This document shows, in pieces, positions 1,049-48,310 of a stretch of 64,000 nucleotides of DNA. Source of the stretch: a virus (lineage: Duplodnaviria > Caudoviricetes). Position 1 is the first letter of the stretch, and every line of letters starts with the position of its first letter. A model generated the notes under the pieces. The model searched no databases, was not told the DNA's origin, and was given only the letters and a program-made list of their open reading frames with translations. The position numbers and the translations under genes were made by a program. The DNA is taken from positions 9,147 through 73,146 of the IMG/VR virus record IMGVR_UViG_3300037478_000223; one strand, written 5' to 3'.

Positions 1049-1585
1049 ATGCCCAAGATCTACGTATGCCGCCGGTGCGGAAACGCCACCACCAACCCGT
1101 CCCGGTACTGCCCAGCCTGCCGGTATCGCAAGGGGGCCCTTGCACCATCCCACAATGGTGCAAGGGCCCCCCTTTTCCCCCTCTGCCACACAGACTACCG
1201 GCCACGTGCCCGATTCTGCGCGTCAACCACATCGGCGCGCTTGACGCCCTTGGTCGGTGCGACGTCACTACTGATCCGCACCGAACCCACCTTCACCCCG
1301 GCCTCACGGAACAACTGGCCCACGTCCCGCGCGCCACACTCACCCCACGAGCCTGGGTCATGCGCTCGCAGCAGCGAAGCCAGCTCGCCCAGCCCGGCAG
1401 ACGGGCGAACCACAGTCCCGTCCAGCGGCCACACGTCCACCACCGCGTCCAGGAACACACCAGACGTCCCGTCATCGTCGTCCGCCGGGACATCTCCGGC
1501 CGCCATCCCGGACAGCGTGCCAGCCTCACGCCGCATGGCCTCGATTTCCTTCACCATCGCGTGCACGCTCGGCAAGTCCAGGTAG
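1049..1585 (+). CDS. Possible zinc-ribbon protein (CRRC...CPAC); 3' part runs antisense into traB
   Basis: RBS AGGA plus ATG just after the promoter; no stop before the hairpin at 1132, so true end uncertain. Confidence 0.3.
   Translation: MPKIYVCRRCGNATTNPSRYCPACRYRKGALAPSHNGARAPLFPLCHTDYRPRARFCASTTSARLTPLVGATSLLIRTEPTFTPASRNNWPTSRAPHSPHEPGSCARSSEASSPSPADGRTTVPSSGHTSTTASRNTPDVPSSSSAGTSPAAIPDSVPASRRMASISFTIACTLGKSR
1132..1176. terminator. 17-bp perfect stem hairpin, T-run on plus side
   Basis: GGGGGCCCTTGCACCAT / ATGGTGCAAGGGCCCCC followed by CTTTT; just past the traB stop. Confidence 0.8.
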
Positions 1586-3387
1586 GACAGCTTCGTCTTG
1601 ACCATCGAACCACCAGCGATCCCGATGAACGCGACACCCGGCGTGTCGATGTCCACCGCACGGTAGCCCCGGCCGTGAGCATCGGACCCGAGCGCGATAT
1701 TCGCGTCAGCGATGCTGTTCTGCGCGTGCCCGACGCGGTGCTTGCACCGGTCCAGGATCCGCGCCGGAACAGTGCCTTCCTTCGCGCCCTGGAACACGAG
1801 CCGGACCGTGATTCCGACCGAGCGAGCCGTCTGCACGACGTCCAACAAGCTGTCTTCGGCCTCGTTCGCGATCGGGGACAGGAACACACGCGGGACCTCG
1901 TCCAGCAGCACGAACACCGGCCGCATGTCCTGGCGATCCGCCAACGCGTCGGTCAGCTTCGAGTCCGGGCATTCCTCGAACGGAAGCGTCTCCAACACCT
2001 TGTTCCGCCGTGCGACCTCGGACCGGAGCCACTTCAACGTCCCCATGAACGCCTCCAGGTCCGCCGCGTCGCACCCGTTGCGCAAGGTGTGCGCGATCGG
2101 CGCGAACGCCTTGTAGTCCAGCCCACCCTTGAAGTTGTGGATGGCCAAGAGCGTTCGCGGGTCCATCGCGGCACCCAGGATCAGCAGCCGCGCGGTAGCC
2201 GACTTCCCGGAACCGACGTCGCCAGCAATCCCGCCGTTCGTCTCGAACAACGGCACGATGACATCCCGACCCCGCGCGTCCACGCCGACCGGAACACCAT
2301 CGAAGTACGAGCGCGAGCGCACCTGAGCCCACTTCCACGCCGGAGACGGCATGCGGGACAGCAGCCCGTCAGCAACGAACAGCTCGAACGCACCCGGCGA
2401 CACGTCCGGCAACGGCTCCACCACCAGGCACTCAGCAGGCTTGCCCATCGCGGACGCGAACCGGCCGTGACGCTTGATCAACTCAGCCGTCTCCAGTCCA
2501 GGAGCCATCCTCACCGTGAGCAACACGCCACCCTGCACGCGCTCACCAGACATCACGCGCGACTTGGCACCGTGCAGGGCACCGAACCCGGACATGGCCA
2601 ACGCGTTCTCCACGGTGGTGACCAACGCCTGATCCTCGTGAGACGACGGAGCCAGTTCCTTGGGATCCTTCGACCTGAACAGGTGAAACTTCCCCTGCAC
2701 CGGATCCCCCTCCGGCATCTGCGCAGTCACGACCACCGGCCGCACCGACTCCACAGCACCGGGACCGTCCGGCACGGGCGCTCGAAGATCTTCCGGCACC
2801 TCGGCACGTAACGGCCACGTGTTACGGCGCTCGCGGACGCCCGCGACGATGAACACGGTGACGGTTCCTGCGATCACGGCTGCCGGGACGGTCCCCCACT
2901 TGCCGTGTTCGGACCACATCCACGCCGCGAAGAACGGGGAGGCGACCACAGCCAGGCGCAGCAGCTTCCCGCGTCCCTTCCCGGCCGCGACCCAGTTCTT
3001 GGCTCGTACGGCGCTGACCTTCACCCCGAGGGCGAAGTACAGCGGCGCGCGCACGATGTGGAATGCGGCGATACGGCCTGTGTATGCGGCGCGTGCCTTG
3101 AAGCCGCCACGGACACGCGGGATCGGGACCGGGCGCACGACGGGCGCGGGCTGCGGCGCGACAACTGCCCCGGCGGGAACCGTCTGCGCTGTGGCCGGTT
3201 CGACGACGGGCCCGTTGTCCGGCTCCGCGTCGCCGCTCGCTGTGTCGTTGCTGTCGAAGGTCTCTTCGATCCGGTCAAGCGAATCATCGGCTTCGAGCAT
3301 GTCCAAGAGCCGTTCGTTCACCTCGTCAGCTTCGTAGCCGCTGAGCCGTTCGTGGTCGCCGTCGTCGTAGTGTGCATTGTCGGTCAT
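1195..3387 (-). CDS. traB: TraB-type FtsK/SpoIIIE conjugative DNA translocase
   Basis: N-terminal TM segments, Walker A GDVGSGKS, AMDPR...HNFKGGLDY, Walker B VFVLLDEV, C-terminal winged-helix-like domain; architecture of actinomycete plasmid TraB. Confidence 0.85.
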   Translation of the reverse strand: MTDNAHYDDGDHERLSGYEADEVNERLLDMLEADDSLDRIEETFDSNDTASGDAEPDNGPVVEPATAQTVPAGAVVAPQPAPVVRPVPIPRVRGGFKARAAYTGRIAAFHIVRAPLYFALGVKVSAVRAKNWVAAGKGRGKLLRLAVVASPFFAAWMWSEHGKWGTVPAAVIAGTVTVFIVAGVRERRNTWPLRAEVPEDLRAPVPDGPGAVESVRPVVVTAQMPEGDPVQGKFHLFRSKDPKELAPSSHEDQALVTTVENALAMSGFGALHGAKSRVMSGERVQGGVLLTVRMAPGLETAELIKRHGRFASAMGKPAECLVVEPLPDVSPGAFELFVADGLLSRMPSPAWKWAQVRSRSYFDGVPVGVDARGRDVIVPLFETNGGIAGDVGSGKSATARLLILGAAMDPRTLLAIHNFKGGLDYKAFAPIAHTLRNGCDAADLEAFMGTLKWLRSEVARRNKVLETLPFEECPDSKLTDALADRQDMRPVFVLLDEVPRVFLSPIANEAEDSLLDVVQTARSVGITVRLVFQGAKEGTVPARILDRCKHRVGHAQNSIADANIALGSDAHGRGYRAVDIDTPGVAFIGIAGGSMVKTKLSYLDLPSVHAMVKEIEAMRREAGTLSGMAAGDVPADDDDGTSGVFLDAVVDVWPLDGTVVRPSAGLGELASLLRAHDPGSWGECGARDVGQLFREAGVKVGSVRISSDVAPTKGVKRADVVDAQNRARGR

Positions 3388-3484
3388 GGCGGGGGTTCCT
3401 TCCGGTGGGGGATGTGCGTCGGTCCCGCCGCGTGAGTGGTACGGCGGGACCGACTGGAGGGGCAACAGGGGGTAGGCGCGCGTG

Positions 3485-38776: not shown

Positions 38777-39904
38777 TTAACCGGCCGTGACCTGCCGCAA
38801 CAGATCCATCGGGGATGCCTCGATCGCCGGTCCCTCGGACGTGGCAGCACCCTGAGCCGCTTCTCGTTCCAGGCGCTCCATCTCTGACGTCAGGATCGCC
38901 TTACGCCGGTCCATCGGGCGCATCGACGCGCCGCCGTCTCGCGCACGGACGGCCTGAGCCTGCATCTTGGCGTAGTTCTTCCGCAGCGAAGCGGCCCCGA
39001 GGATCACCCCGGACCAGAACTGATCCGCACGCGCCCAGTCGATCGCAGCGCGAACCTTCTCGGGGCTACGCCCGTCGATGTCCACGAGCCTGCGCATCGT
39101 GTCGAACGCGTTCTTGCTCGCCTTCGGGCGCTCGCCGGTGCACTGCTGCACGGACTCGGCCAGGTACTCCAGGAGTTCGAGGATGTCCGGCCGCGCGTCC
39201 GCTACGCCCTTCCACGCGGCCTGCTTCGGCTTGGAAGCGCCCGGGGCGTCATGGCCGGGTGCGGGGACGTCCTGGACGTGCTGGGGCGCCTCTGCGTGGT
39301 TGTGGCCGTCAGCGCGAGAGCGTCCGCACCGGACGCACCCGGGGGCGTCTTCGTCGGCGTCTTCGTCGATGGTGGGTTGCGTCGGCCCTGCCGCGTCAGC
39401 GGCCGGGGGGAGATCCGCGTCAGCGGTTCGAGGGGTGTCGTTCTTCCACTGGCTCTCGTTCAACTGGCTCTCGTTCTTTCCCTCCCCACTTACTGGGGAG
39501 GCCCCCTCCCCACTTACTGGGGAGGCCCCCTCCCCACTTACTGGGGAGGCTGCCGGGTCCGGTGCGAGGGGGATGACTTCGACCGTGTAGCTCGTTGAGG
39601 TCTGCATCCCGTTGTCGCGGAATCGCAGTTCACGGGTCAGGGCTCCGGCCGTGACCAGTTCGGCAAGCCACTTGTCGATCGACGTCAACGAGACGCCCGT
39701 TTCTCCCAGGGTGCGGCCGGGCATCCTCTCGGCCAGGGTCTTGCGCTTGGGCCACGCTTCGTCGTCCGTGTTCGCGTAGCGGGCCAGGAGTGCGTACAGG
39801 CGCATGGCTCCGTTGGAGATGTTCGGGTCCATGATGATCCACTCGGGGATCTGCGCGAATCGGACTCGTGCCCGGACTCCAACGCGTTCGTGGCTGTCGG
39901 CCAT
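38777..39904 (-). CDS. Replication initiator, lambda-O-like (N-terminal HTH, C-terminal FWSGVIL...LRKNY)
   Basis: FAQIPEWI...AMRLYALL...AWPKRKTLAERM wHTH; internal DNA repeats. Confidence 0.8.
   Translation of the reverse strand: MADSHERVGVRARVRFAQIPEWIIMDPNISNGAMRLYALLARYANTDDEAWPKRKTLAERMPGRTLGETGVSLTSIDKWLAELVTAGALTRELRFRDNGMQTSTSYTVEVIPLAPDPAASPVSGEGASPVSGEGASPVSGEGKNESQLNESQWKNDTPRTADADLPPAADAAGPTQPTIDEDADEDAPGCVRCGRSRADGHNHAEAPQHVQDVPAPGHDAPGASKPKQAAWKGVADARPDILELLEYLAESVQQCTGERPKASKNAFDTMRRLVDIDGRSPEKVRAAIDWARADQFWSGVILGAASLRKNYAKMQAQAVRARDGGASMRPMDRRKAILTSEMERLEREAAQGAATSEGPAIEASPMDLLRQVTAG
39446..39550. repeat. Iteron-like repeats inside initiator gene (probable origin)
   Basis: 3 x 24 bp CCTCCCCACTTACTGGGGAGGCCC (39481, 39505, 39529), each internally palindromic; 2 x 15 bp C(C/A)ACTGGCTCTCGTT. 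Confidence 0.8.
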
Positions 39905-40002
39905 GTTCCACCTCTCTGCGTCGAGAGTGGTAGCAGCAACCCAGCGTGAGCATGTAGACTTCTCACGTTCATCAGGTTTGGAGTGCTCTACCACTCGAAT
40001 CT

Positions 40003-41139: not shown

Positions 41140-41418
41140 ATGACCCGTCACACGGCACAGGACATGGCCGACGCCGCGCGCGACGCTCTCAACGAAGCCA
41201 TCGCGAACACGGTGAGCACCATGCGCCGGTACGCCGACGAGATCGAACGCGACTGCGCCCGAACCAGCATTCCCGCCAACCGTGCCTCTGCGGCGCTCGC
41301 TGGCATCGGGCACATGATGACCAACATCGACATGCGCGGCATTGCCTACTGGGCTGCCTGCGAGGCCAGTGACACAGCCGAGGCCGACGCCGCCAAGACC
41401 GGGAAGGGCGACGCCTGA
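41140..41418 (+). CDS. Hypothetical protein
   Basis: AGGAGA RBS after promoter. Confidence 0.65.
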   Translation: MTRHTAQDMADAARDALNEAIANTVSTMRRYADEIERDCARTSIPANRASAALAGIGHMMTNIDMRGIAYWAACEASDTAEADAAKTGKGDA

Positions 41419-41912
41419 TGGGTTACACCTACGAGACACGCGACGCCGTCGCCACCATGGTCCGCGCGGCGGTCCCCCACGATGGTCACTACGACATCGA
41501 AGCCATCACGGCCTACCTCTGGATGAAGACGGATGTGAACTCAGGGTTCATGGACGTCACCGTGGGTGAGTTCTGGGATGTCGTGGACAGCAACCGTATC
41601 GACCTGCCGCAGCTTCGATCCACGGCACATCTCGTCGCCGCTATCGTCTTCCAGAAGAACGCATCGATCCTGTCCGACGTCTACGAGAAGCCGGAGGGCA
41701 TGACCGCACCGGTGTACCGCGTCGACGTGGAGCACGAGAACGAGAACCGGCAGTGGCACATCAAGTTCATCGACGTTCAGCGCAACTCGCCCGTGGTGAA
41801 GATCTTCGAGATCCTATCTGTGGGCTCCGAGCCGCCGTACGACGAAGAAGAGGTCATGACGACCGATGACGCGACACAGGCACTCGCCAAGCTCGCTGAG
41901 TTGCTGTCGTGA
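41418..41912 (+). CDS. Hypothetical protein
   Basis: TGATG coupling. Confidence 0.65.
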   Translation: MGYTYETRDAVATMVRAAVPHDGHYDIEAITAYLWMKTDVNSGFMDVTVGEFWDVVDSNRIDLPQLRSTAHLVAAIVFQKNASILSDVYEKPEGMTAPVYRVDVEHENENRQWHIKFIDVQRNSPVVKIFEILSVGSEPPYDEEEVMTTDDATQALAKLAELLS

Positions 41913-41935
41913 CTCGCGCATGAACCGAACCAGCG

Positions 41936-41978
41936 CGTGAGGCCGCGCACCTGCAATTTGCAGGTGCGCGGCCTCACG
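41936..41978. terminator. 21-bp perfect inverted repeat
   Basis: CGTGAGGCCGCGCACCTGCAA-T-TTGCAGGTGCGCGGCCTCACG. Confidence 0.7.
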
Positions 41979-42007
41979 TGCATCCAACGAAGGAAGGAAC
42001 GGCAACC

Positions 42008-42229
42008 ATGCAACACGAACACCGCACCGAGGCGATGGATGAACTTGCAGCCGCCGTCGCGTGCATCCGTCGCGCTGGCGTGCACCTGGTCCAGTCCGGC
42101 GACATCGACACCGGCCGCGACGATGTTGCAACCCGGTCCATGTCAGGCGTCATCACGGCATCCGAGAGGTGGTGCGTGGAAGCGCTGGTGGCGATCAACG
42201 CTCGCATGCCCGAGCGCGTGCCTGCATGA
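42008..42229 (+). CDS. Hypothetical protein
   Basis: GAAGGAA RBS. Confidence 0.55.
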   Translation: MQHEHRTEAMDELAAAVACIRRAGVHLVQSGDIDTGRDDVATRSMSGVITASERWCVEALVAINARMPERVPA

Positions 42230-42486
42230 CATTGAGTGCATGCAGGCACGCGCACGCCACCGGATGCAGGTAACCGGGGTGCATGCACCTCGGGATACAT
42301 AAGGGGACCCTGGCCACCCGCCAGGGTCCCCTTCCACTCACTCACACTCACACCCGAAGGAACGAAGGGCGTGCACGGCCAAGACTAGTGCACCAGAGTC
42401 GGTGAACGGGATGCACGTCACGAGCCCTTGCAGGCACCCGGTTGCATGCAATCGGGTGCCTGCAACGCTGCACCTGCAAGAAGAGA

Positions 42487-42527
42487 GCAACACGGGGGTT
42501 GCATGCGTTACACACGTGCGGTACTGT
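42487..42527 (+). promoter_or_regulatory. Operator-promoter GCAAC-N6-GTTGC, TTGCAT-17-TACTGT
   Basis: Direct sequence match. Confidence 0.8.
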
Positions 42528-42572
42528 GCATGCATCGGGAACATCAACCGCACTCACGGAAGGAACCACGCC

Positions 42573-43715
42573 ATGCACACCGAGAACCCCCGCATCATCA
42601 AGATCATCGTCGCCGTCATCGTCGTCGCCGTCATCGCCGTGGCGATCGTGGCCAACGGAGCCGCCTACCTCGGCGGCACCGCCTTCGTCCGCGACGTCAT
42701 GGGCGAGAGCCAGACCACCGCCTACGTGTTCGGCGGCATCCTTGAAATGACCCTGGCCGTGCTATCCCTCACGGTCCTTGCCCGCTCGTACATGCTCCAG
42801 CCCACCGCAGGCGTACGCGCCGCGCTCTGGGCCGCTGCCGTGGCGTCAGCCGCGTTCGGCGCGATCCACGAGATCGTTGCTTACGCCACCGGTGAGATGA
42901 CGCTCTACCAGGCGATCCCCGCCGCCGCATGGCGCGTCGGCGCCGTCGCCGCGTCCGTCGCGCTCTGGGAACTGGTGATCAAGCTGGTGTGCGGCCCCCG
43001 TGCCCGGGAAGCTCGTGACGCCGAGAACCAGCACAAGCTCATGTACCGCTACTTGAAGGCCGTTCAGTGGGTCGGTCTGACCCAGGGCACCCGCTTTGCA
43101 TCCCTTGCACGCATGCTGGAACGGCGTGCACGCATGCAGACCGCCAAGCACGTCACCCCCGAGCAGCGGACCGCGATCCTGGAGAAGTTCCACGAGTCGC
43201 AGGAAGCCAGCGCGGTCATCTCCGTCGCGATGGCGTCCCTGGCTCAGACGACGGACGACGCGTTGAGGGACCTGGGTGACGTGTCCGCCCCGCACCTGTC
43301 CCAGCCGATCACCCGCGCAGCGCTCGGGAGCATGCACCCTGCAAGCTCGGACGCCATGCACGTGCAGACGGTGCAGGCCGTACAGGAAGTGCAGACGGTG
43401 CAGGACGTGCAGGACGTTCCGCAGGTGCAGGAGATTTCCCCGGTGCAGGAAGCCGAGACGTACACACGCACCGCCGCCGCCACGGTGGCCGACCGGTCCC
43501 GCGCGATCCGCGCTGACCTCGCCGCCGCATCCAAGCCAGCGACGTCCACGCGCAACAACGCCTCGCGCCGGAAGGAAGCAATCGCGCTCATCCGTGAGCA
43601 CTGGTCAAGCCGCGATGAGGTCACGATCCCCCAGGCGCACAGCATGCTCATGGCCGCCGGGTTCGACCACCACGAGCGCTCCACGGGCAACTGGCTCGCC
43701 GCTGCATTCTCCTGA
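42573..43715 (+). CDS. Spd/DUF2637-like multi-TM protein with C-terminal winged-helix-like domain
   Basis: 4 N-terminal TM helices, helical linker, VQ(T/D/E) repeats, C-terminal RRKEAIALIREHW...STGNWL. Confidence 0.6.
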   Translation: MHTENPRIIKIIVAVIVVAVIAVAIVANGAAYLGGTAFVRDVMGESQTTAYVFGGILEMTLAVLSLTVLARSYMLQPTAGVRAALWAAAVASAAFGAIHEIVAYATGEMTLYQAIPAAAWRVGAVAASVALWELVIKLVCGPRAREARDAENQHKLMYRYLKAVQWVGLTQGTRFASLARMLERRARMQTAKHVTPEQRTAILEKFHESQEASAVISVAMASLAQTTDDALRDLGDVSAPHLSQPITRAALGSMHPASSDAMHVQTVQAVQEVQTVQDVQDVPQVQEISPVQEAETYTRTAAATVADRSRAIRADLAAASKPATSTRNNASRRKEAIALIREHWSSRDEVTIPQAHSMLMAAGFDHHERSTGNWLAAAFS

Positions 43716-43811
43716 CAGATGCACCATGCAAACCGTGCGTGCATGCCCCGCACCCTGCAACATGCGGGGCATGCACACCCACGACACACCCCACCAGGAA
43801 GGAACCATGCA

Positions 43812-44090
43812 ATGAACACCACCCCCAGCCAAGATGCAAGCAACGAGCCTGCACGCAAGGTACGCACGTGCTCCATGTGCCCGAACACGTTCGACGTGCA
43901 CCCCAACAACGGCAAGACACGCGACACGTGCTCGAACGCTTGCAGGCAAGCCAAGTACCGCGCCAGCAAGGCACTGCCCAAGTTCCGGCGCGCGGGAGCA
44001 CCCCGCCGCAACATCCCCACGGCGGCAGAAGCCGAAGCGCGATCCCTCACCGAACTGTCCAAGTCCATCAGATCCGGAACCAGCGAATGA
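43812..44090 (+). CDS. Zinc-finger protein (CSMC...TCSNACR)
   Basis: Motif shared with 12209-12700 product. Confidence 0.6.
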   Translation: MNTTPSQDASNEPARKVRTCSMCPNTFDVHPNNGKTRDTCSNACRQAKYRASKALPKFRRAGAPRRNIPTAAEAEARSLTELSKSIRSGTSE

Positions 44091-44227
44091 ACGTGTTCGA
44101 GGTCGCCGCGATCCTCGCCGTCTGCGCTCTGGCGTGGCTGGCGCTTGGCCGGTTCCGCCGAGGCTTCGTCAGGTGGGTTGTCCTGGCCGTCGCTGTCCTC
44201 CTGATGGTCCGTTCACTGACCGGATGA
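44087..44227 (+). CDS. Small 2-TM peptide
   Basis: ATGA coupling, hydrophobic. Confidence 0.55.
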   Translation: MNVFEVAAILAVCALAWLALGRFRRGFVRWVVLAVAVLLMVRSLTG

Positions 44228-44234
44228 CCAGCCT

Positions 44235-44458
44235 GTGACCGAGAAAGCCGCCCCCCTCCAAACAGCCAGTTCCAGCCCGGAACCAGGCGTCTGGAGGGGG
44301 GTCTGTCATGCCGGTCACAACCACCTCATGTAGCCTCGCAACGGCTACATAGCAACGATTCCGCCCGTAACCCAGGCTGGTCACACACGCCGGTCACGCC
44401 CGGTCACGTGACCGGCATGTGACCGCCGGTAACCGCACCTGTGACCGCCCACGGTTAC
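44235..44458. repeat. Cluster of GGTCAC/GTGACC (GGTNAC) motifs in both orientations
   Basis: About ten copies, e.g. CCGGTCAC 44311, 44390, 44400; GTGACCG 44408, 44419, 44441. Confidence 0.7.
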
Positions 44459-44509
44459 ACGCTCCGCAAGCACTCACGACGCCCCGTAGACGGGCAAGGA
44501 AGGGGCCAC

Positions 44510-44974
44510 GTGGCCAACTACACCATCGCCACCACCTGGGAGGCTCTGGGAGGCTCTGACGACATCCTGACGGGCAACGATCTGGGCCACCTGATCGACG
44601 AGTCAACAGAGTTCTTCACCCGAGGTGTGTCCTCCGTCGCCTCCGTCTGGGTGACCATGGACCCTCCCGGCACCCCGACCACATGGTCAGAGCCCCGGCA
44701 CCCCGACCACACGCCCCTACTCGCGGACGGCTACTACCTGTTGGAGATCCGCGAAGAGGGGGCCCCCACCAACCGTTCCAAGGGACGCGCCCGCCGGTTC
44801 GTGCACGTACAGGGACACGTCAACCCGCGTGCAGTGCGCGATGCAGAAATCGCCATCGCCGCCGTGCAGGCTGCACAGCGCGAGTTGCGGCATGCACTGC
44901 ACGAGTGGGAACAGGTCCGCACCGCGATACCGCAGGACATGCAAGATCGCTTGCAGGAACGCATCCGGCAGTAG
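44510..44974 (+). CDS. Hypothetical protein
   Basis: GGAAGGGG RBS before GTG. Confidence 0.55.
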   Translation: MANYTIATTWEALGGSDDILTGNDLGHLIDESTEFFTRGVSSVASVWVTMDPPGTPTTWSEPRHPDHTPLLADGYYLLEIREEGAPTNRSKGRARRFVHVQGHVNPRAVRDAEIAIAAVQAAQRELRHALHEWEQVRTAIPQDMQDRLQERIRQ

Positions 44975-45266
44975 CACGACATGCAACCATGCAACGGGGC
45001 CCGGCCTGCATCATGCAGGCCGGGCCCCGTTTGCATCGACGCTAGCCATGCAAGCTGGCACGAGAAAACTTACAAAGCAGGATGACACTGCAAGTCTGCA
45101 CCCGAAAACTTACATTCGCCACGCGCGTCACCGCCGACCACGTGGCCGCGCCCCGACGTCTCCCGGATGAAACGCCGGGACGCACGACCGCTGCAAATGC
45201 CCCCTTGCATGCGGCCACCGCCACCGTACCGCGCCACCGTTGCAGGCATGCAGGCGACACACTAAT

Positions 45267-46719: not shown

Positions 46720-46767
46720 GCCATCCTCGCGTGGCGCTCGCTGCTGTGCGCGGTGAGCGCCACGCGC

Positions 46768-46808
46768 CCAACCTGTAGGTTGCACCATGGTCCGATGATG
46801 TGTAACGT
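46768..46808 (+). promoter_or_regulatory. Operator-promoter CCAAC-N6-GTTGC, TTGCAC-17-TAACGT
   Basis: Direct sequence match. Confidence 0.8.
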
Positions 46809-46848
46809 AGTTCAGGTCGGGAACATCCAACACACGAAGGGAACCCCC

Positions 46849-47529
46849 GTGGAGCGCACTACCTACGCCGATATCAAGCAGAACACCCCCCAGTGGAACG
46901 CGCTACGACGCGGCATCCTGACTGCCTCGGTCGTCGGACAGATCGTCACCCCTACCTTGAAGGTGGCCAAGAACCCGGCATCGCGGATGCTGGCGAACCT
47001 CCTGGTCTCCGAGCGCATCACTGGTCGCACGGAACCGACGTTCGTGTCTGAGGACATGAAGCGTGGACACGCCGACGAGGTGACCGCAAGGCGCCTGTAC
47101 TCCCTCAACCATGCCACTGTCACCCAGTGCGGTTTCATGGTGTTGGACACCGGGGGCGCCGGGTCCATCGGCTACTCACCTGACGGGGTGGTGGGCGCTG
47201 ATGGGCTGATCGAAGCCAAGTCACGCCAGCCCAAGCACCACCTGGCAACGATCCTGTCTGACGAGGTCCCTGCTGAGTACGTCGCCCAGGTGCAAACCGC
47301 TCTCCTGGTCTCCGGGCGCGAGTGGATCGACTACCTCAGCTATTGCGCGGGCATGCCCATGTGGGTCAAGCGCGTCACCCCGGACGAGAAGTGGACGGAT
47401 GCCATCCTCACGGCGGCAGCCGAGTTCGAGAAGGCAGCTACCAAGATGGAGGCGGACTACGCCGAACGGGTCAAGGGGCTCACCCCGACCTACCGCGCCG
47501 GGGACCGCAACCCCCGCGACCTTTTCTGA
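46849..47529 (+). CDS. YqaJ/lambda-Exo-like exonuclease
   Basis: QNTPQWNALRRGILTAS, IGYSPDGVVG, LIEAKS, YVAQVQ motifs. Confidence 0.9.
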   Translation: MERTTYADIKQNTPQWNALRRGILTASVVGQIVTPTLKVAKNPASRMLANLLVSERITGRTEPTFVSEDMKRGHADEVTARRLYSLNHATVTQCGFMVLDTGGAGSIGYSPDGVVGADGLIEAKSRQPKHHLATILSDEVPAEYVAQVQTALLVSGREWIDYLSYCAGMPMWVKRVTPDEKWTDAILTAAAEFEKAATKMEADYAERVKGLTPTYRAGDRNPRDLF

Positions 47530-47548
47530 CCCACACGGCACGGCCCGC

Positions 47549-47589
47549 GAAACGCTCACGTTGCGTGGCTGTGCAGTGGTGCGTAACAT
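47549..47589 (+). promoter_or_regulatory. Operator-promoter GAAAC-N6-GTTGC, TTGCGT-17-TAACAT
   Basis: Direct sequence match. Confidence 0.8.
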
Positions 47590-47638
47590 CGAACCTGTCG
47601 GGAACACCAGAACCACACGCGAGGGAGAACACCCCATC

Positions 47639-48310
47639 ATGACCATCACCACAGACACGGGCACCCTGCCGGACGTCACGGACGTCACGGACGCTGCCAC
47701 GGAGTCCAGTGAGACGCCTGCCAGCCTGGCCGAAGCGCTCATGGCCTTTCAGGCGAACTTGCCCATCATCCCCAAGACCAAGGACGGGCAGGACGGACAC
47801 CGCCCGTTCAAGTACGCGGACCTGTCGGCCATCGTGCGCAAGTGCGCGCCCCTCCTGGCCCGTTTCGGTCTGTCGGTCACGTCCGGCACCGTGATCCGGG
47901 GCGATCGAACCATCCTGGTTTCCAAGCTCATGCACGTCAGCGGAAACTACGAGGTCTCGGAGATCGACGTCACCGCGTCCCCCGGCAACATGAAGCCCCT
48001 CGGCGCAAACATCACCTATGCGCGCCGCTACGCCTACGGAGCGTTGACCGGGATCGTGACCGACGAGGACACCGACATGGACGGGACCGACGTCGTCGCA
48101 CAGATCGGCGCGGACGACGGCGAGGAAGCGGACGCATGGGCGGACAAGGCGACCCAGGAGCAGCGCGACCACCTGAACGCCGCAAACAACGAGGGCTTGC
48201 CCGTGAAGCGGATCATGTTCAACCTGTTTGGCCCGAGCGTCACACCCGACAACATCAACCGGACACAAGCCGCCGCGCTGTGCCACGCGGTGGACAACTA
48301 CCAGGCGTAA
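47639..48310 (+). CDS. ERF-family ssDNA annealing protein
   Basis: FKYADLSAI, LMHVSG, GANITYARRYAYGALTGIVTDEDTD. Confidence 0.9.
   Translation: MTITTDTGTLPDVTDVTDAATESSETPASLAEALMAFQANLPIIPKTKDGQDGHRPFKYADLSAIVRKCAPLLARFGLSVTSGTVIRGDRTILVSKLMHVSGNYEVSEIDVTASPGNMKPLGANITYARRYAYGALTGIVTDEDTDMDGTDVVAQIGADDGEEADAWADKATQEQRDHLNAANNEGLPVKRIMFNLFGPSVTPDNINRTQAAALCHAVDNYQA

What the first reader, a model, noticed from the sequence alone, without database searches (positions are those of the whole stretch)
41936..45260. TGCA-saturated island around a membrane-anchored winged-helix (Spd-like) gene
Seen: by manual count about 27 TGCA in 41941-42600, where about 2 are expected at roughly 68% GC. Enrichment continues inside coding sequence (VQTVQAVQEVQTVQDVQDVPQVQ is built from GTGCAG repeats) and in several TGCA-centred hairpins (41936, about 42428, about 43739, about 44995). 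The rest of the window is not like this. The core gene has 4 TMs plus a C-terminal DNA-binding-like domain and its own regulon promoter. Established: Streptomyces plasmids encode Spd proteins for intramycelial spreading, and pIJ101 SpdA binds a short palindrome. Inference: the island is a binding landscape for its own membrane-tethered wHTH, forming a DNA-anchoring, segregation or spreading site.
Basis: partly seen in the sequence, partly recalled or inferred. Interest (0 to 1): 0.7.

Follow-up and report, generated by a model that had tools for sequence, protein, structure and literature searches.

The report
TGCA docking-site arrays around phage membrane-HTH gene
A soil actinomycete phage has written about 70 copies of the four-letter DNA word TGCA into and around the gene for a membrane protein with a DNA-binding tail. 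Relatives do the same with TGCA or other words, so the copies are most likely that protein's own docking sites, holding the phage DNA at the cell membrane.

Summary
There are 73 TGCA in 41936-45260, against 7.6 expected from the rest of the window (Poisson P about 2e-45). It is the only such island in the complete 73-kb phage genome.

The enrichment survives codon and amino-acid correction. It uses two reading frames and rare codons (NNT GCA), so selection acts on the DNA.

All 12 other contigs that carry a homologue of the 380-aa membrane gene (36-65% identity) have the same layout: about 20 TGCA upstream and 14-39 in the disordered-linker coding part.

More distant homologues sit just downstream of a TraB-like DNA pump in integrative conjugative elements of Promicromonospora and relatives. 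They carry other words in the same linker (CGGACA, CCGGTCC, CCGGACC, GTCCGGGAC). The word changes together with the protein's own C-terminal helix-turn-helix, not with the TraB C-terminus. Array and HTH are exchanged as one roughly 490-bp cassette.

Best reading: density-coded docking sites for the protein's own tail, which tether the element's DNA to a membrane TraB/Spd-type apparatus. Binding and function are untested.

This scan has seen the same phenomenon before on other DNA (Streptomyces phages, other words). I found no published description. The "winged" helix is not supported; the model shows a three-helix bundle.

The parts
41952..42577 (.). Upstream TGCA array: 27 copies, 43 per kb. 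It overlaps a small 73-aa ORF and three hairpins.
   Evidence: Relatives have 19-22 TGCA within 400 bp upstream of their homologue.
41933..41981 (.). Near-perfect 24-nt-arm hairpin centred on TGCAATTTGCA, just after the stop of gene 41418-41912.
   Evidence: I1
42008..42229 (+). Small ORF (73 aa, RBS GGAAGGAAC) of unknown function. It carries 6 TGCA.
   Evidence: A homologue lies at the same place in L001.
42428..42465 (.). 19-nt-arm palindrome centred on TTGCATGCAA.
   Evidence: I3
42487..42502 (+). GCAAC-N6-GTTGC operator-like palindrome overlapping a TTGCAT -35-like hexamer in front of the membrane gene.
   Evidence: 12 perfect copies in the window against 0.05 expected.
42573..43715 (+). 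Spd-like membrane protein, 380 aa. Four N-terminal helices (6-135), a cytoplasmic helical stalk to residue 233, a disordered linker (235-289), a helix (290-319) and a C-terminal three-helix domain (329-379).
43097..43447 (.). In-gene TGCA array: 14 copies in the part that encodes the stalk end and the disordered linker. Only codon frames 1 and 2 are used.
43548..43712 (+). Coding region of the C-terminal three-helix (HTH-like) domain. The putative recognition helix is HERSTGNWL.
   Evidence: (pLDDT 93-96)
43703..43944 (.). TGCA cluster (11 copies) across the intergenic hairpin 43739-43776 and the start of the next gene.
   Evidence: (I8)
43812..44090 (+). 92-aa zinc-ribbon protein. It resembles the N-terminal DNA-binding region of pIJ101 SpdA2.
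   Evidence: 30% over 53 aa, E 2e-5; hhalign E 8e-4, probability 25%
44087..44227 (+). 46-aa small hydrophobic ORF.
   Evidence: Homologues in L001 and L002.
44235..44446 (.). Second array, free of TGCA: 8 GGTCAC/GTGACC words converging on the palindrome GTCACGTGAC (44403-44412). That palindrome is the core of the sps site of Streptomyces plasmids.
   Evidence: PMC4170104
44510..44974 (+). 154-aa ORF of unknown function. Its last 175 bp carry 10 TGCA.
44802..45252 (.). Distal TGCA cluster (21 copies), including the 19-nt-arm hairpin 44993-45031.
   Evidence: (I2). The close relative L002 has the same distal cluster.
1195..3465 (-). TraB-like FtsK/SpoIIIE translocase of the phage (756-aa ORF), 40 kb from the island. 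TGCA density there is at background.
   Evidence: (31% over 484 aa, E 1e-46, to the AICE gene just upstream of the Spd-like homologue)

Best explanation
The TGCA island is a set of dense arrays of very short protein-docking sites on double-stranded DNA. They are written into non-coding DNA and into the tolerant, disordered-linker part of the gene for a four-helix membrane protein.

The most likely reader is that protein's own C-terminal three-helix (HTH-like) domain. A 4-bp word has no specificity alone: about 2-3 per kb occur everywhere. At 43-95 per kb, many tails of an oligomeric membrane protein on long flexible linkers can bind at once. Only this stretch of DNA would then be held with high avidity, whatever the spacing or orientation of the words.

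This would tie the phage genome to the membrane, next to the phage's TraB-like DNA pump. Spd proteins are thought to do this for Streptomyces plasmids during spreading through hyphae. A segregation or stability role is equally possible.

The upstream array may also let the protein regulate its own promoter.

Shown: the enrichment, the selection at DNA level, the conservation with the gene, the word-with-HTH co-variation and the cassette exchange. Inferred: the binding, the oligomeric state, the membrane tethering and the biological role.
For: 1. DNA-level selection. TGCA exceeds every synonymous and codon-order shuffle in 7 of 7 genes. It sits in two frames (V/L/M+Q/H and NNT-GCA) and never in the Cys frame. 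It forces rare codons. The linker peptides are hypervariable between relatives while TGCA density is kept.

2. Linkage to this gene only. All 12 other contigs with a homologue have 19-22 TGCA upstream and 14-39 in the gene. Neighbouring genes differ, and in the window the replication gene is inverted relative to the relatives.

3. Homologues in AICE-like elements carry other words at the same place. Examples: CGGACA 14-30 copies against about 1 expected, often in runs with 12-bp spacing and in both orientations; also CCGGTCC, CCGGACC and GTCCGGGAC. An asymmetric word used in both orientations argues for duplex DNA, not RNA.

4. The word follows helix 3 of the protein's own tail. VTDRTARRLL goes with CGGACA. 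VSDG[YH]AR[KR]LL goes with CCGGTCC or CCGGACC. KLRTAYNDR and ER[ST]xxN[WY]L go with TGCA.

5. The word does not follow TraB. L032 (CCGGTCC) and L069 (CGGACA) have TraB proteins 87% identical (89% in the C-terminal 90 aa) and flanks 84-87% identical. Their array+HTH cassette is only 65% identical. The L032 cassette is 79% identical to that of L059, whose TraB is 50% identical as protein (65% as DNA).

6. C-terminal HTH domains of other types pass Pfam thresholds in further family members (HTH_23, HTH_28, HTH_11). A DNA-binding tail is therefore the family's architecture.

7. Structure. AF2 gives a confident three-helix C-terminal domain (pLDDT 93-96) behind a disordered linker.

8. Published context. 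SpdB2 is an oligomeric four-TM protein that binds dsDNA and TraB, and homologues occur on actinophages (PMC4447253). SpdA2 binds a palindrome inside its own gene (PMC4170104).
Against: - No binding data exist.
- The window's tail matches no Pfam HTH family. Its structural matches to HTH domains are at noise level for small helical bundles (Z 6.3 or less; Foldseek E above 1).
- Array and HTH lie within about 300 bp of each other, so their co-variation could partly be plain linkage in a recombining block.
- A 4-bp palindrome is an unusually short site for an HTH.
- Two HTH classes that differ a lot (the window type and the 52-kb-phage type) both go with TGCA.
- Other subfamilies with a C-terminal HTH (L037-L057, the Nocardioides group) show no array within 6 kb.
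- In the phage the TraB-like gene is 40 kb away.
- The host, and whether it forms hyphae, is unknown.
Confidence: 0.55

Rival explanations
1. The arrays are a clt-like locus. They would be read by the C-terminal winged helix of the phage's TraB-like FtsK/SpoIIIE pump, marking the phage DNA as its transfer substrate.
For: The phage and its relatives encode a TraB-like protein. Published clt loci are arrays of short 5-9-bp repeats near or within tra genes (PMC3583192, PMC4447253). In AICE relatives the array gene lies directly after the TraB-like gene.
Against: In the AICE relatives the word does not follow the TraB C-terminus. TraB is 87-89% identical between L032 and L069, which have different words. 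TraB is as low as 47-52% identical between L032 and several CGGACA-type loci, so TraB varies widely among elements that share that word. FtsK-type gamma domains read asymmetric 8-mers, not a 4-bp palindrome (general knowledge). In the phage the island is 40 kb from the TraB-like gene and TGCA is at background there.
Confidence: 0.12
2. The words are operators for a different regulator, phage- or host-encoded. This could be one of the small neighbouring proteins, which coats the region to silence a toxic membrane gene. There would be no tethering role.
For: The upstream array flanks the gene's operator and promoter. spd and kil genes are typically toxic and tightly repressed (PMC4447253). Small ORFs and a zinc-ribbon protein lie inside the island.
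Against: The small neighbours are not conserved in the 36%-identity relatives, which keep the same arrays. In the L032/L069 pair only the array+HTH cassette differs, while the flanks are 84-87% identical. A changed word therefore needs a changed reader inside the cassette. An in-gene array of 14-39 sites is excessive for a roadblock.
Confidence: 0.12
3. This is a cluster of methylation or restriction-type sites (TGCA is a known type II target). It would be used like GATC clusters at oriC or the P1 pac site, to time replication, packaging or expression.
For: TGCA is a 4-bp palindrome. The density resembles GATC clusters (general knowledge). Some relatives encode N6_N4 methyltransferases.
Against: No N6_N4, D12 or C5 methyltransferase family was found in the complete phage genome. 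The methyltransferases are not universal in relatives. Homologous arrays in AICEs use asymmetric 6-9-bp words that follow an HTH. TGCA is only mildly depleted elsewhere in this genome (about 2.3 per kb against 3.3 expected) and not at all in the relatives.
Confidence: 0.04
4. The signal acts in RNA: UGCA motifs and hairpins in the transcripts would serve as nuclease or RNA-binding-protein sites or as terminators.
For: Several hairpins sit just after stop codons and look like terminators. All in-gene copies are transcribed.
Against: Most of the upstream array lies upstream of the gene's own promoter. Homologous arrays of asymmetric words occur in both orientations within one gene. That makes sense only on duplex DNA.
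Confidence: 0.04
5. The enrichment is a by-product with no function. It would come from slippage-prone tandem repeats coding for a low-complexity VQ/VH/PA linker, or from foreign DNA of odd composition.
For: Tandem repeats of 9-27 bp are detectable at 43360-43450. Linker length varies between relatives.
Against: More than half of the copies are non-coding or lie in other genes. Two frames and rare codons are used. The same word is kept at 36% protein identity and at 64-71% GC. All flanking bases are near background, so no longer repeat unit explains the word.
Confidence: 0.03

Closest known systems
SpdB2 of pSVH1 and SpdB of pIJ101 (Streptomyces plasmid spread proteins)
   Same: Similar size (380 against 409 aa), four predicted membrane helices and a cytoplasmic C-terminal part. 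Encoded with a TraB-type pump: adjacent in the AICE homologues, in the same genome in the phage. SpdB2 binds dsDNA, oligomerises and binds the TraB C-terminus, and homologues were noted on actinophages phiC31 and VWB (PMC4447253).
   Different: No detectable sequence homology to pIJ101 SpdB (hhalign probability 0.4%). pSVH1 SpdB2 was not available to test. SpdB2 is reported to bind DNA non-specifically, and no cognate site array is described for it. Here a specific word array travels with the tail.
SpdA2 and its sps palindrome (pIJ101 and many Streptomyces plasmids; PMC4170104)
   Same: A DNA-binding protein of the spread or stability region whose short palindromic sites lie inside or next to its own gene. 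The sites are kept at DNA level against the coding constraint.
   Different: sps is a 12-bp palindrome in 1-3 copies, bound by a soluble zinc-finger protein. Here a 4-bp word occurs about 70 times around a membrane protein with a helical tail. A separate possible SpdA2/sps pair (43812-44090 plus GTCACGTGAC at 44403) lies inside the island.
clt loci with TraB/TraA recognition repeats (pSVH1, pJV1, pWTY27, pIJ101)
   Same: Arrays of short repeated words (5-9 bp, 3-9 copies) near or overlapping transfer genes. They form large protein-DNA complexes (PMC3583192, PMC4447253).
   Different: Those are read by the pump's own winged helix. Here the word does not follow TraB in the relatives. Copy number is about ten times higher, and the word is a 4-bp palindrome.
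Density-coded short-site systems: GATC clusters read by SeqA, omega-protein heptad arrays and ParR/parC iterons (from general knowledge)
   Same: Specificity comes from the local density of low-information sites bound cooperatively or multivalently. The arrays flank a promoter and double as segregation sites.
   Different: A different protein fold, no methylation involved, and a membrane-embedded reader.
Earlier findings of this scan: word arrays in DUF2637/Spd-like membrane-HTH genes of Streptomyces phages and elements (GAGACG, TGCCAG, TGTC/GACA, ACCGCGNNTCC, CGGTCA)
   Same: The same architecture and the same reading, reached by other agents on other DNA.
   Different: Here the word is the shortest so far (a 4-bp palindrome), and the lineage is not Streptomyces-like. 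The phage has 64% GC, and the AICE relatives are in Promicromonospora, Isoptericola and Myceligenerans. The TraB-versus-own-HTH question was tested with a mosaic pair.

Membership tests
SpdB/SpdB2 spread proteins | Integral membrane protein with about four transmembrane helices and a cytoplasmic C-terminal part | tested here: met
   AF2 helices at 6-42, 47-73, 79-105 and 111-169. Three segments pass Kyte-Doolittle 1.6; the third helix is weaker.
SpdB/SpdB2 spread proteins | Sequence homology to a characterised SpdB | tested here: not met
   hhalign of the family profile A2 against pIJ101 SpdB: probability 0.4%, E 0.16. tblastn of an AICE homologue against PLSDB finds only a Xylanimonas plasmid. 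pSVH1 SpdB2 itself was not available.
SpdB/SpdB2 spread proteins | Encoded in the transfer or spread operon next to traB | tested here: inconclusive
   Met in the AICE homologues: the gene starts 0-4 bp after a 775-aa TraB-like gene. Not met in the phage, where the TraB-like gene is 40 kb away.
SpdB/SpdB2 spread proteins | Binds dsDNA, oligomerises, binds TraB, needed for intramycelial spreading | not testable with these tools
   Needs biochemistry and genetics; the properties are taken from PMC4447253.
Pfam DUF2637 (PF10935) | Score at or above the gathering threshold (22.8 bits) | tested here: inconclusive
   The window protein scores 19.4 bits, or 22.0 bits in the six-frame search, just under the cut-off. 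Only 2 of 21 close family members match. The distant family member P0058 passes with 30.4 bits.
Helix-turn-helix DNA-binding domain (C-terminal tail) | Recognisable HTH by profile or fold | tested here: inconclusive
   No Pfam HTH for the window tail. HTH_Tnp_Tc3_2 matches at E 0.006 in 6 of 25 aligned tails. VIA best Z is 6.3 (FurB, PadR, ArgR, transposase HTHs), within the noise for small helical bundles. Other family members' tails pass HTH_23, HTH_28 and HTH_11 thresholds.
Winged helix | Beta-hairpin wing after the recognition helix | tested here: not met
   The AF2 models show helices only, and the protein ends right after helix 3.
clt (TraB recognition locus) | Repeat word specified by the cognate TraB C-terminal winged helix | tested here: not met
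   In the AICE relatives, L032 and L069 have TraB 87-89% identical but different words. CGGACA loci have diverse TraB proteins. Not directly testable for the phage.
SpdA2/sps pair (for 43812-44090 and 44403-44412) | Zinc-finger SpdA N-terminal domain plus the palindrome CGTCACGTGACG in or next to the gene | tested here: inconclusive
   BLASTP 30% over 53 aa, E 2e-5, with the four Cys aligned. hhalign E 8e-4 but probability only 25%. The central 10 of 12 bp of sps are present once in the window, 310 bp downstream of the gene, and also in L002.
Methylation-controlled site cluster (GATC/SeqA-like) | A cognate DNA methyltransferase in the element | tested here: not met
   PF01555, PF02086 and PF00145 are absent from the complete phage genome. 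The host is unknown.

The most novel reading that the evidence does not exclude
Actinomycete phages and integrative conjugative elements share an evolvable DNA address system. An oligomeric membrane protein carries a small HTH on a disordered tether. The element writes tens of copies of that HTH's 4-9-bp word into the tether-coding DNA itself and its upstream region. Reader and address are exchanged between elements as one cassette, which gives each element a private docking tag at the membrane DNA-translocation apparatus. TGCA would be the minimal case, with specificity coded by site density alone.
Probability: 0.45. Interest if true: 0.75.

Novelty: new variant of a known kind. Interest (0 to 1): 0.62.

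Why it matters
How Streptomyces-type double-stranded DNA transfer and intramycelial spreading pick and hold the right DNA is only partly understood. TraB has its clt site, but the Spd proteins are described as non-specific DNA binders.

A membrane Spd-like protein with its own site array inside its own gene would add a second, sequence-specific tether. It is conserved from AICEs to tailed phages and swappable as a cassette. It would explain why such proteins occur in phages. It would also be a clear natural example of a DNA signal overprinted on a disordered-linker coding region, and of specificity achieved by the density of a 4-bp word.

The idea is directly testable with a small soluble domain and synthetic arrays.

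Tried and rejected
- blastn and tblastn of the island and the membrane protein against the 50,697 phage records found nothing.
- The first genome-contig scan, with the phage-type alignment, found nothing. The second, with the AICE-type alignment, gave 80 loci.
- Foldseek on the whole model and on the tail gave no match at E 0.001 or better. VIA wide search gave only noise-level Z.
- Z-DNA or alternating purine-pyrimidine tracts as the driver: rejected. TGCAA, TGCAG, CTGCA and TTGCA are as enriched as the alternating extensions.
- A longer hidden motif: rejected by the flat flanking composition. Regular helical phasing: spacing is irregular, with modes at 6 and 4 bp.
- Origin of replication: unlikely. 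The island follows the membrane gene, not the initiator gene, which is inverted in this phage and carries its own 24-bp x3 repeat.
- Methylation: no methyltransferase found.
- Subfamilies L037-L057 and the Nocardioides loci show no array within 6 kb although they have a C-terminal HTH. The array habit is therefore subfamily-specific.
- L095 (plasmid pNFX87a) has a plain 6-bp tandem repeat, which I did not count as an array of sites.

Full report
**Setting**

The window is bases 9147-73146 of a 73,146-bp virus record that CheckV rates 100% complete. GC is 64.3%.

Around the finding lie typical actinophage early genes:
- a DnaD/lambda-O-like initiator (38777-39994, minus strand);
- a YqaJ exonuclease (46753-47529);
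- an ERF annealing protein (47399-48310).

The nearest named relatives of the exonuclease are Arthrobacter phages, at 53-61% identity.

The genome has no tyrosine or serine integrase, no CbiA-type ParA and no N6_N4, D12 or C5 methyltransferase. It does encode a 756-aa FtsK/SpoIIIE protein at 1195-3465 on the minus strand.

- There are 212 TGCA in the window and 73 of them lie in 41936-45260. The rest of the window predicts 7.6 there. Poisson P is 2.5e-45.
- No other kilobase of the 73-kb genome has more than 8.
- TGCA is the core word. It is enriched 9.6-fold, every one-base extension is enriched 6-18 fold, and the flanks are near background. Neither a longer motif nor alternating purine-pyrimidine (Z-DNA) tracts explain it.
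- The copies fall into five clusters of 43-95 per kb, separated by TGCA-poor stretches.
- Five long inverted repeats carry TGCA in their stems or centres. Most sit directly after stop codons, so they may also act as terminators.

**Gene content of the island (plus strand)**

| Coordinates | Product |
|---|---|
| 42008-42229 | 73 aa, unknown function |
| 42573-43715 | 380-aa membrane protein |
| 43812-44090 | 92-aa zinc-ribbon protein |
| 44087-44227 | 46 aa, hydrophobic |
| 44510-44974 | 154 aa, unknown function |

Most of these genes (not the 46-aa ORF) follow a GGAAGG-type ribosome-binding site. A GCAAC-N6-GTTGC palindrome at 42487-42502 lies in front of the membrane gene. It is one of 12 perfect copies in the window, against 0.05 expected.

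**Selection acts on the DNA, not the peptide**

- In the membrane gene and six homologues, the observed TGCA count is higher than the maximum of 300 synonymous shuffles and of 300 codon-order shuffles.
- TGCA occupies codon frames 1 (V/L/M followed by Q/H) and 2 (NNT then GCA). It almost never occupies the frame that would give Cys.
- GCA is preceded by an NNT codon in 5/10 to 25/29 cases, although only 6-11% of codons end in T.
- In the protein alignment the linker is hypervariable in length and sequence, and is rich in just those dipeptides (VH, VQ, LQ, MQ, PA).
- Even the invariant second residue, His, makes the start read [AG]TGCAC.

**The island belongs to this gene**

A search of 5.8 billion proteins found 35 homologues: two at 60-65% identity and the rest near 36%, mostly on phage contigs of about 52 kb.

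Twelve further distinct contigs were fetched (L001-L005, L007, L009-L014; L006 and L008 are the same contigs as L004 and L005). Their GC is 64-71%.
- Eleven of the twelve have 19-22 TGCA in the 400 bp upstream of the gene; L002, which starts only 80 bp before its gene, shows 4.
- The nine that contain the whole gene have 14-39 copies in it, almost all in the linker-coding part.
- Elsewhere on the long contigs TGCA runs at background, about 2.6-4.6 per kb.

Neighbouring genes differ between the two phage groups. In the window the replication gene is inverted relative to the relatives. The unit that is kept is "upstream array - membrane domain - linker array - tail". The close relatives L001 and L002 also share the window's extra clusters.

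**The protein**

AlphaFold2 with 21 sequences gives:
- four N-terminal helices (6-42, 47-73, 79-105, 111 onward);
- a long helical stalk to residue 233;
- a disordered stretch at 235-289, which is where the in-gene TGCA words sit;
- a helix at 290-319;
- a three-helix C-terminal domain.

Folded alone with 25 sequences, the tail reaches pLDDT 93-96. Three of the four N-terminal helices pass a hydropathy threshold of 1.6.

There is no beta wing. Structure searches return DNA-binding HTH domains (Fur, PadR, ArgR, transposases, StbA), but at scores the tool itself rates as noise for small bundles.

DUF2637 is hit just below its threshold.

**Distant relatives and the key comparison**

A profile search of 1.84 billion representatives found 74 proteins. 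The distant ones lie in AICE-like elements. The gene order there is: GntR regulator, DUF6284, a 775-aa gene, this family's gene, Prim-Pol, Xis-type HTH, integrase. The 775-aa gene is 31% identical over 484 aa (E 1e-46) to the phage's FtsK-like protein. So the phage carries both halves of an AICE transfer module.

Several distant members' tails pass Pfam HTH thresholds, and one passes DUF2637.

These loci have no TGCA island. Instead, the linker-coding part of the homologue is packed with CGGACA/TGTCCG: 15-16 copies against 0.3-0.7 expected. The words often form runs with 12-bp spacing, in several reading frames and in both orientations.

A genome scan gave 80 such loci in Promicromonospora, Isoptericola, Myceligenerans, Nocardioides and others.
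- About 22 carry CGGACA.
- L032 carries CCGGTCC, L059 CCGGACC, L070 GTCCGGGAC, L072 TGGACA, L071 GGTGACA and L097 GACGCAG.
- Two subfamilies have no array.

**Who reads the words?**

The tails of the phage proteins and of the CGGACA, CCGGTCC and CCGGACC groups are homologous. Helix 3 sorts with the word:

| Helix 3 | Word |
|---|---|
| VTDRTARRLL | CGGACA |
| VSDG[YH]AR[KR]LL | CCGGTCC / CCGGACC |
| KLRTAYNDR or ER[ST]xxN[WY]L | TGCA |

The TraB-like C-terminus does not sort with the word.
- L032 and L069 have TraB proteins 87% identical (89% in the last 90 aa) and different words.
- TraB differs widely between L032 and several CGGACA loci, down to 47-52% identity.

At nucleotide level, L032 and L069 compare as follows:

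| Segment | Identity |
|---|---|
| TraB 3' end | 87% |
| 5' part of the Spd-like gene | 84% |
| 700 bp downstream | 87% |
| 3' part holding array and tail | 65% |

That 3' part of L032 is 79% identical to the one in L059, whose TraB region is 65% identical. Array and reader therefore move as one cassette of about 490 bp between backbones.

That points to the tail. Physical linkage is a caveat, and binding is not shown.

**Mechanism proposed**

A 4-bp word occurs about 2-3 times per kb anywhere, so one tail on one site cannot be specific. The proposal is an oligomeric membrane protein with several tails on tethers of 55-120 residues (oligomery is published for SpdB2, PMC4447253, and assumed here). 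It would bind many words at once in a stretch with 43-95 words per kb. Free spacing and orientation fit such flexible multivalent binding, and a palindromic word can be approached from either side.

The result would be a membrane-tethered stretch of phage DNA. This could feed the TraB-like pump, carry DNA across cross-walls, or keep a non-integrated genome in daughter compartments. The upstream array, which abuts the promoter, could also give autoregulation.

Thoma et al. suggested that SpdB2 homologues on actinophages might help phage DNA to spread (PMC4447253). The closest published cis-site logic is SpdA2 with its sps palindrome inside its own gene (PMC4170104).

**Rivals**

A TraB clt, a different regulator, methylation-site clusters, an RNA signal and a neutral repeat by-product were each considered. 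They are weighed under Rival explanations. None fits the cassette result and the non-coding copies as well.

**Comparison with what is known, and novelty**

By architecture and context the protein works like a Spd protein. Membership in SpdB was tested against pIJ101 SpdB and not met. DUF2637 is borderline.

This scan has reported the same kind of array in Spd-like membrane-HTH genes of Streptomyces phages and elements, with other words. I saw those notes only after reaching this reading. They are not independent evidence, but they show the phenomenon is recurrent.

My literature searches on Spd proteins, clt and DUF2637 turned up no published description.

I rate the finding a new variant of a known kind: cis-site arrays of actinomycete transfer and spread modules. 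Three things are new here: the minimal 4-bp palindromic word, the extension to a non-Streptomyces lineage, and the test that separates TraB from the protein's own tail.

Noticed in passing
window 43812-44090 and 44235-44446: A possible SpdA2/sps pair lies inside the island. The 92-aa zinc-ribbon protein aligns with the N-terminal zinc finger of pIJ101 SpdA2 (E 2e-5 pairwise; hhalign probability only 25%). About 310 bp downstream, 8 GGTCAC/GTGACC words converge on GTCACGTGAC (44403-44412), the central 10 bp of the plasmid sps site. That palindrome is unique in the window and is also present in relative L002:1897-1906.
   Followed up: partly
window 39480-39550: A perfect 24-bp x3 tandem repeat, each unit an inverted repeat CCTCCCC...GGGGAGG, lies inside the replication-initiator gene 38777-39994 (minus strand). 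It looks like lambda-O-style origin iterons within the initiator's linker.
   Followed up: no
window, 12 sites from 4326 to 59825: There are twelve perfect GCAAC-N6-GTTGC palindromes against 0.05 expected, one of them in front of the Spd-like gene. This suggests a phage-wide operator set.
   Followed up: partly
window 1195-3465 (minus strand) and the whole genome: A complete 73-kb tailed-phage genome carries a TraB-like FtsK/SpoIIIE pump homologous to AICE TraB (E 1e-46). No integrase, ParA or DNA methyltransferase family was detected. The related phage contigs L012 and L014, and the contig of P0028 (gene list only, no DNA), also carry a pump of 725-731 aa.
   Followed up: partly
L018:7528-7670 and the same place in about 20 AICE loci: A fixed block of about 150 bp holds eight CGCTAC/GTAGCG words. 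It lies 360-810 bp past the Spd-like gene and upstream of the Prim-Pol gene, and is conserved whatever the linker word. It is a candidate origin or the true clt.
   Followed up: partly
L095:6865-7080 (Promicromonospora plasmid pNFX87a): The homologue carries ten head-to-tail copies of a 6-bp unit (CGTAGA/GTAGAC). This is a plain tandem repeat, not a dispersed array.
   Followed up: no
L037-L057 and L073-L094: Two subfamilies of the same membrane protein (400-450 aa) have ordinary resolvase-type or sigma-r4-type C-terminal HTHs. They show no word array within 6 kb of the gene.
   Followed up: partly
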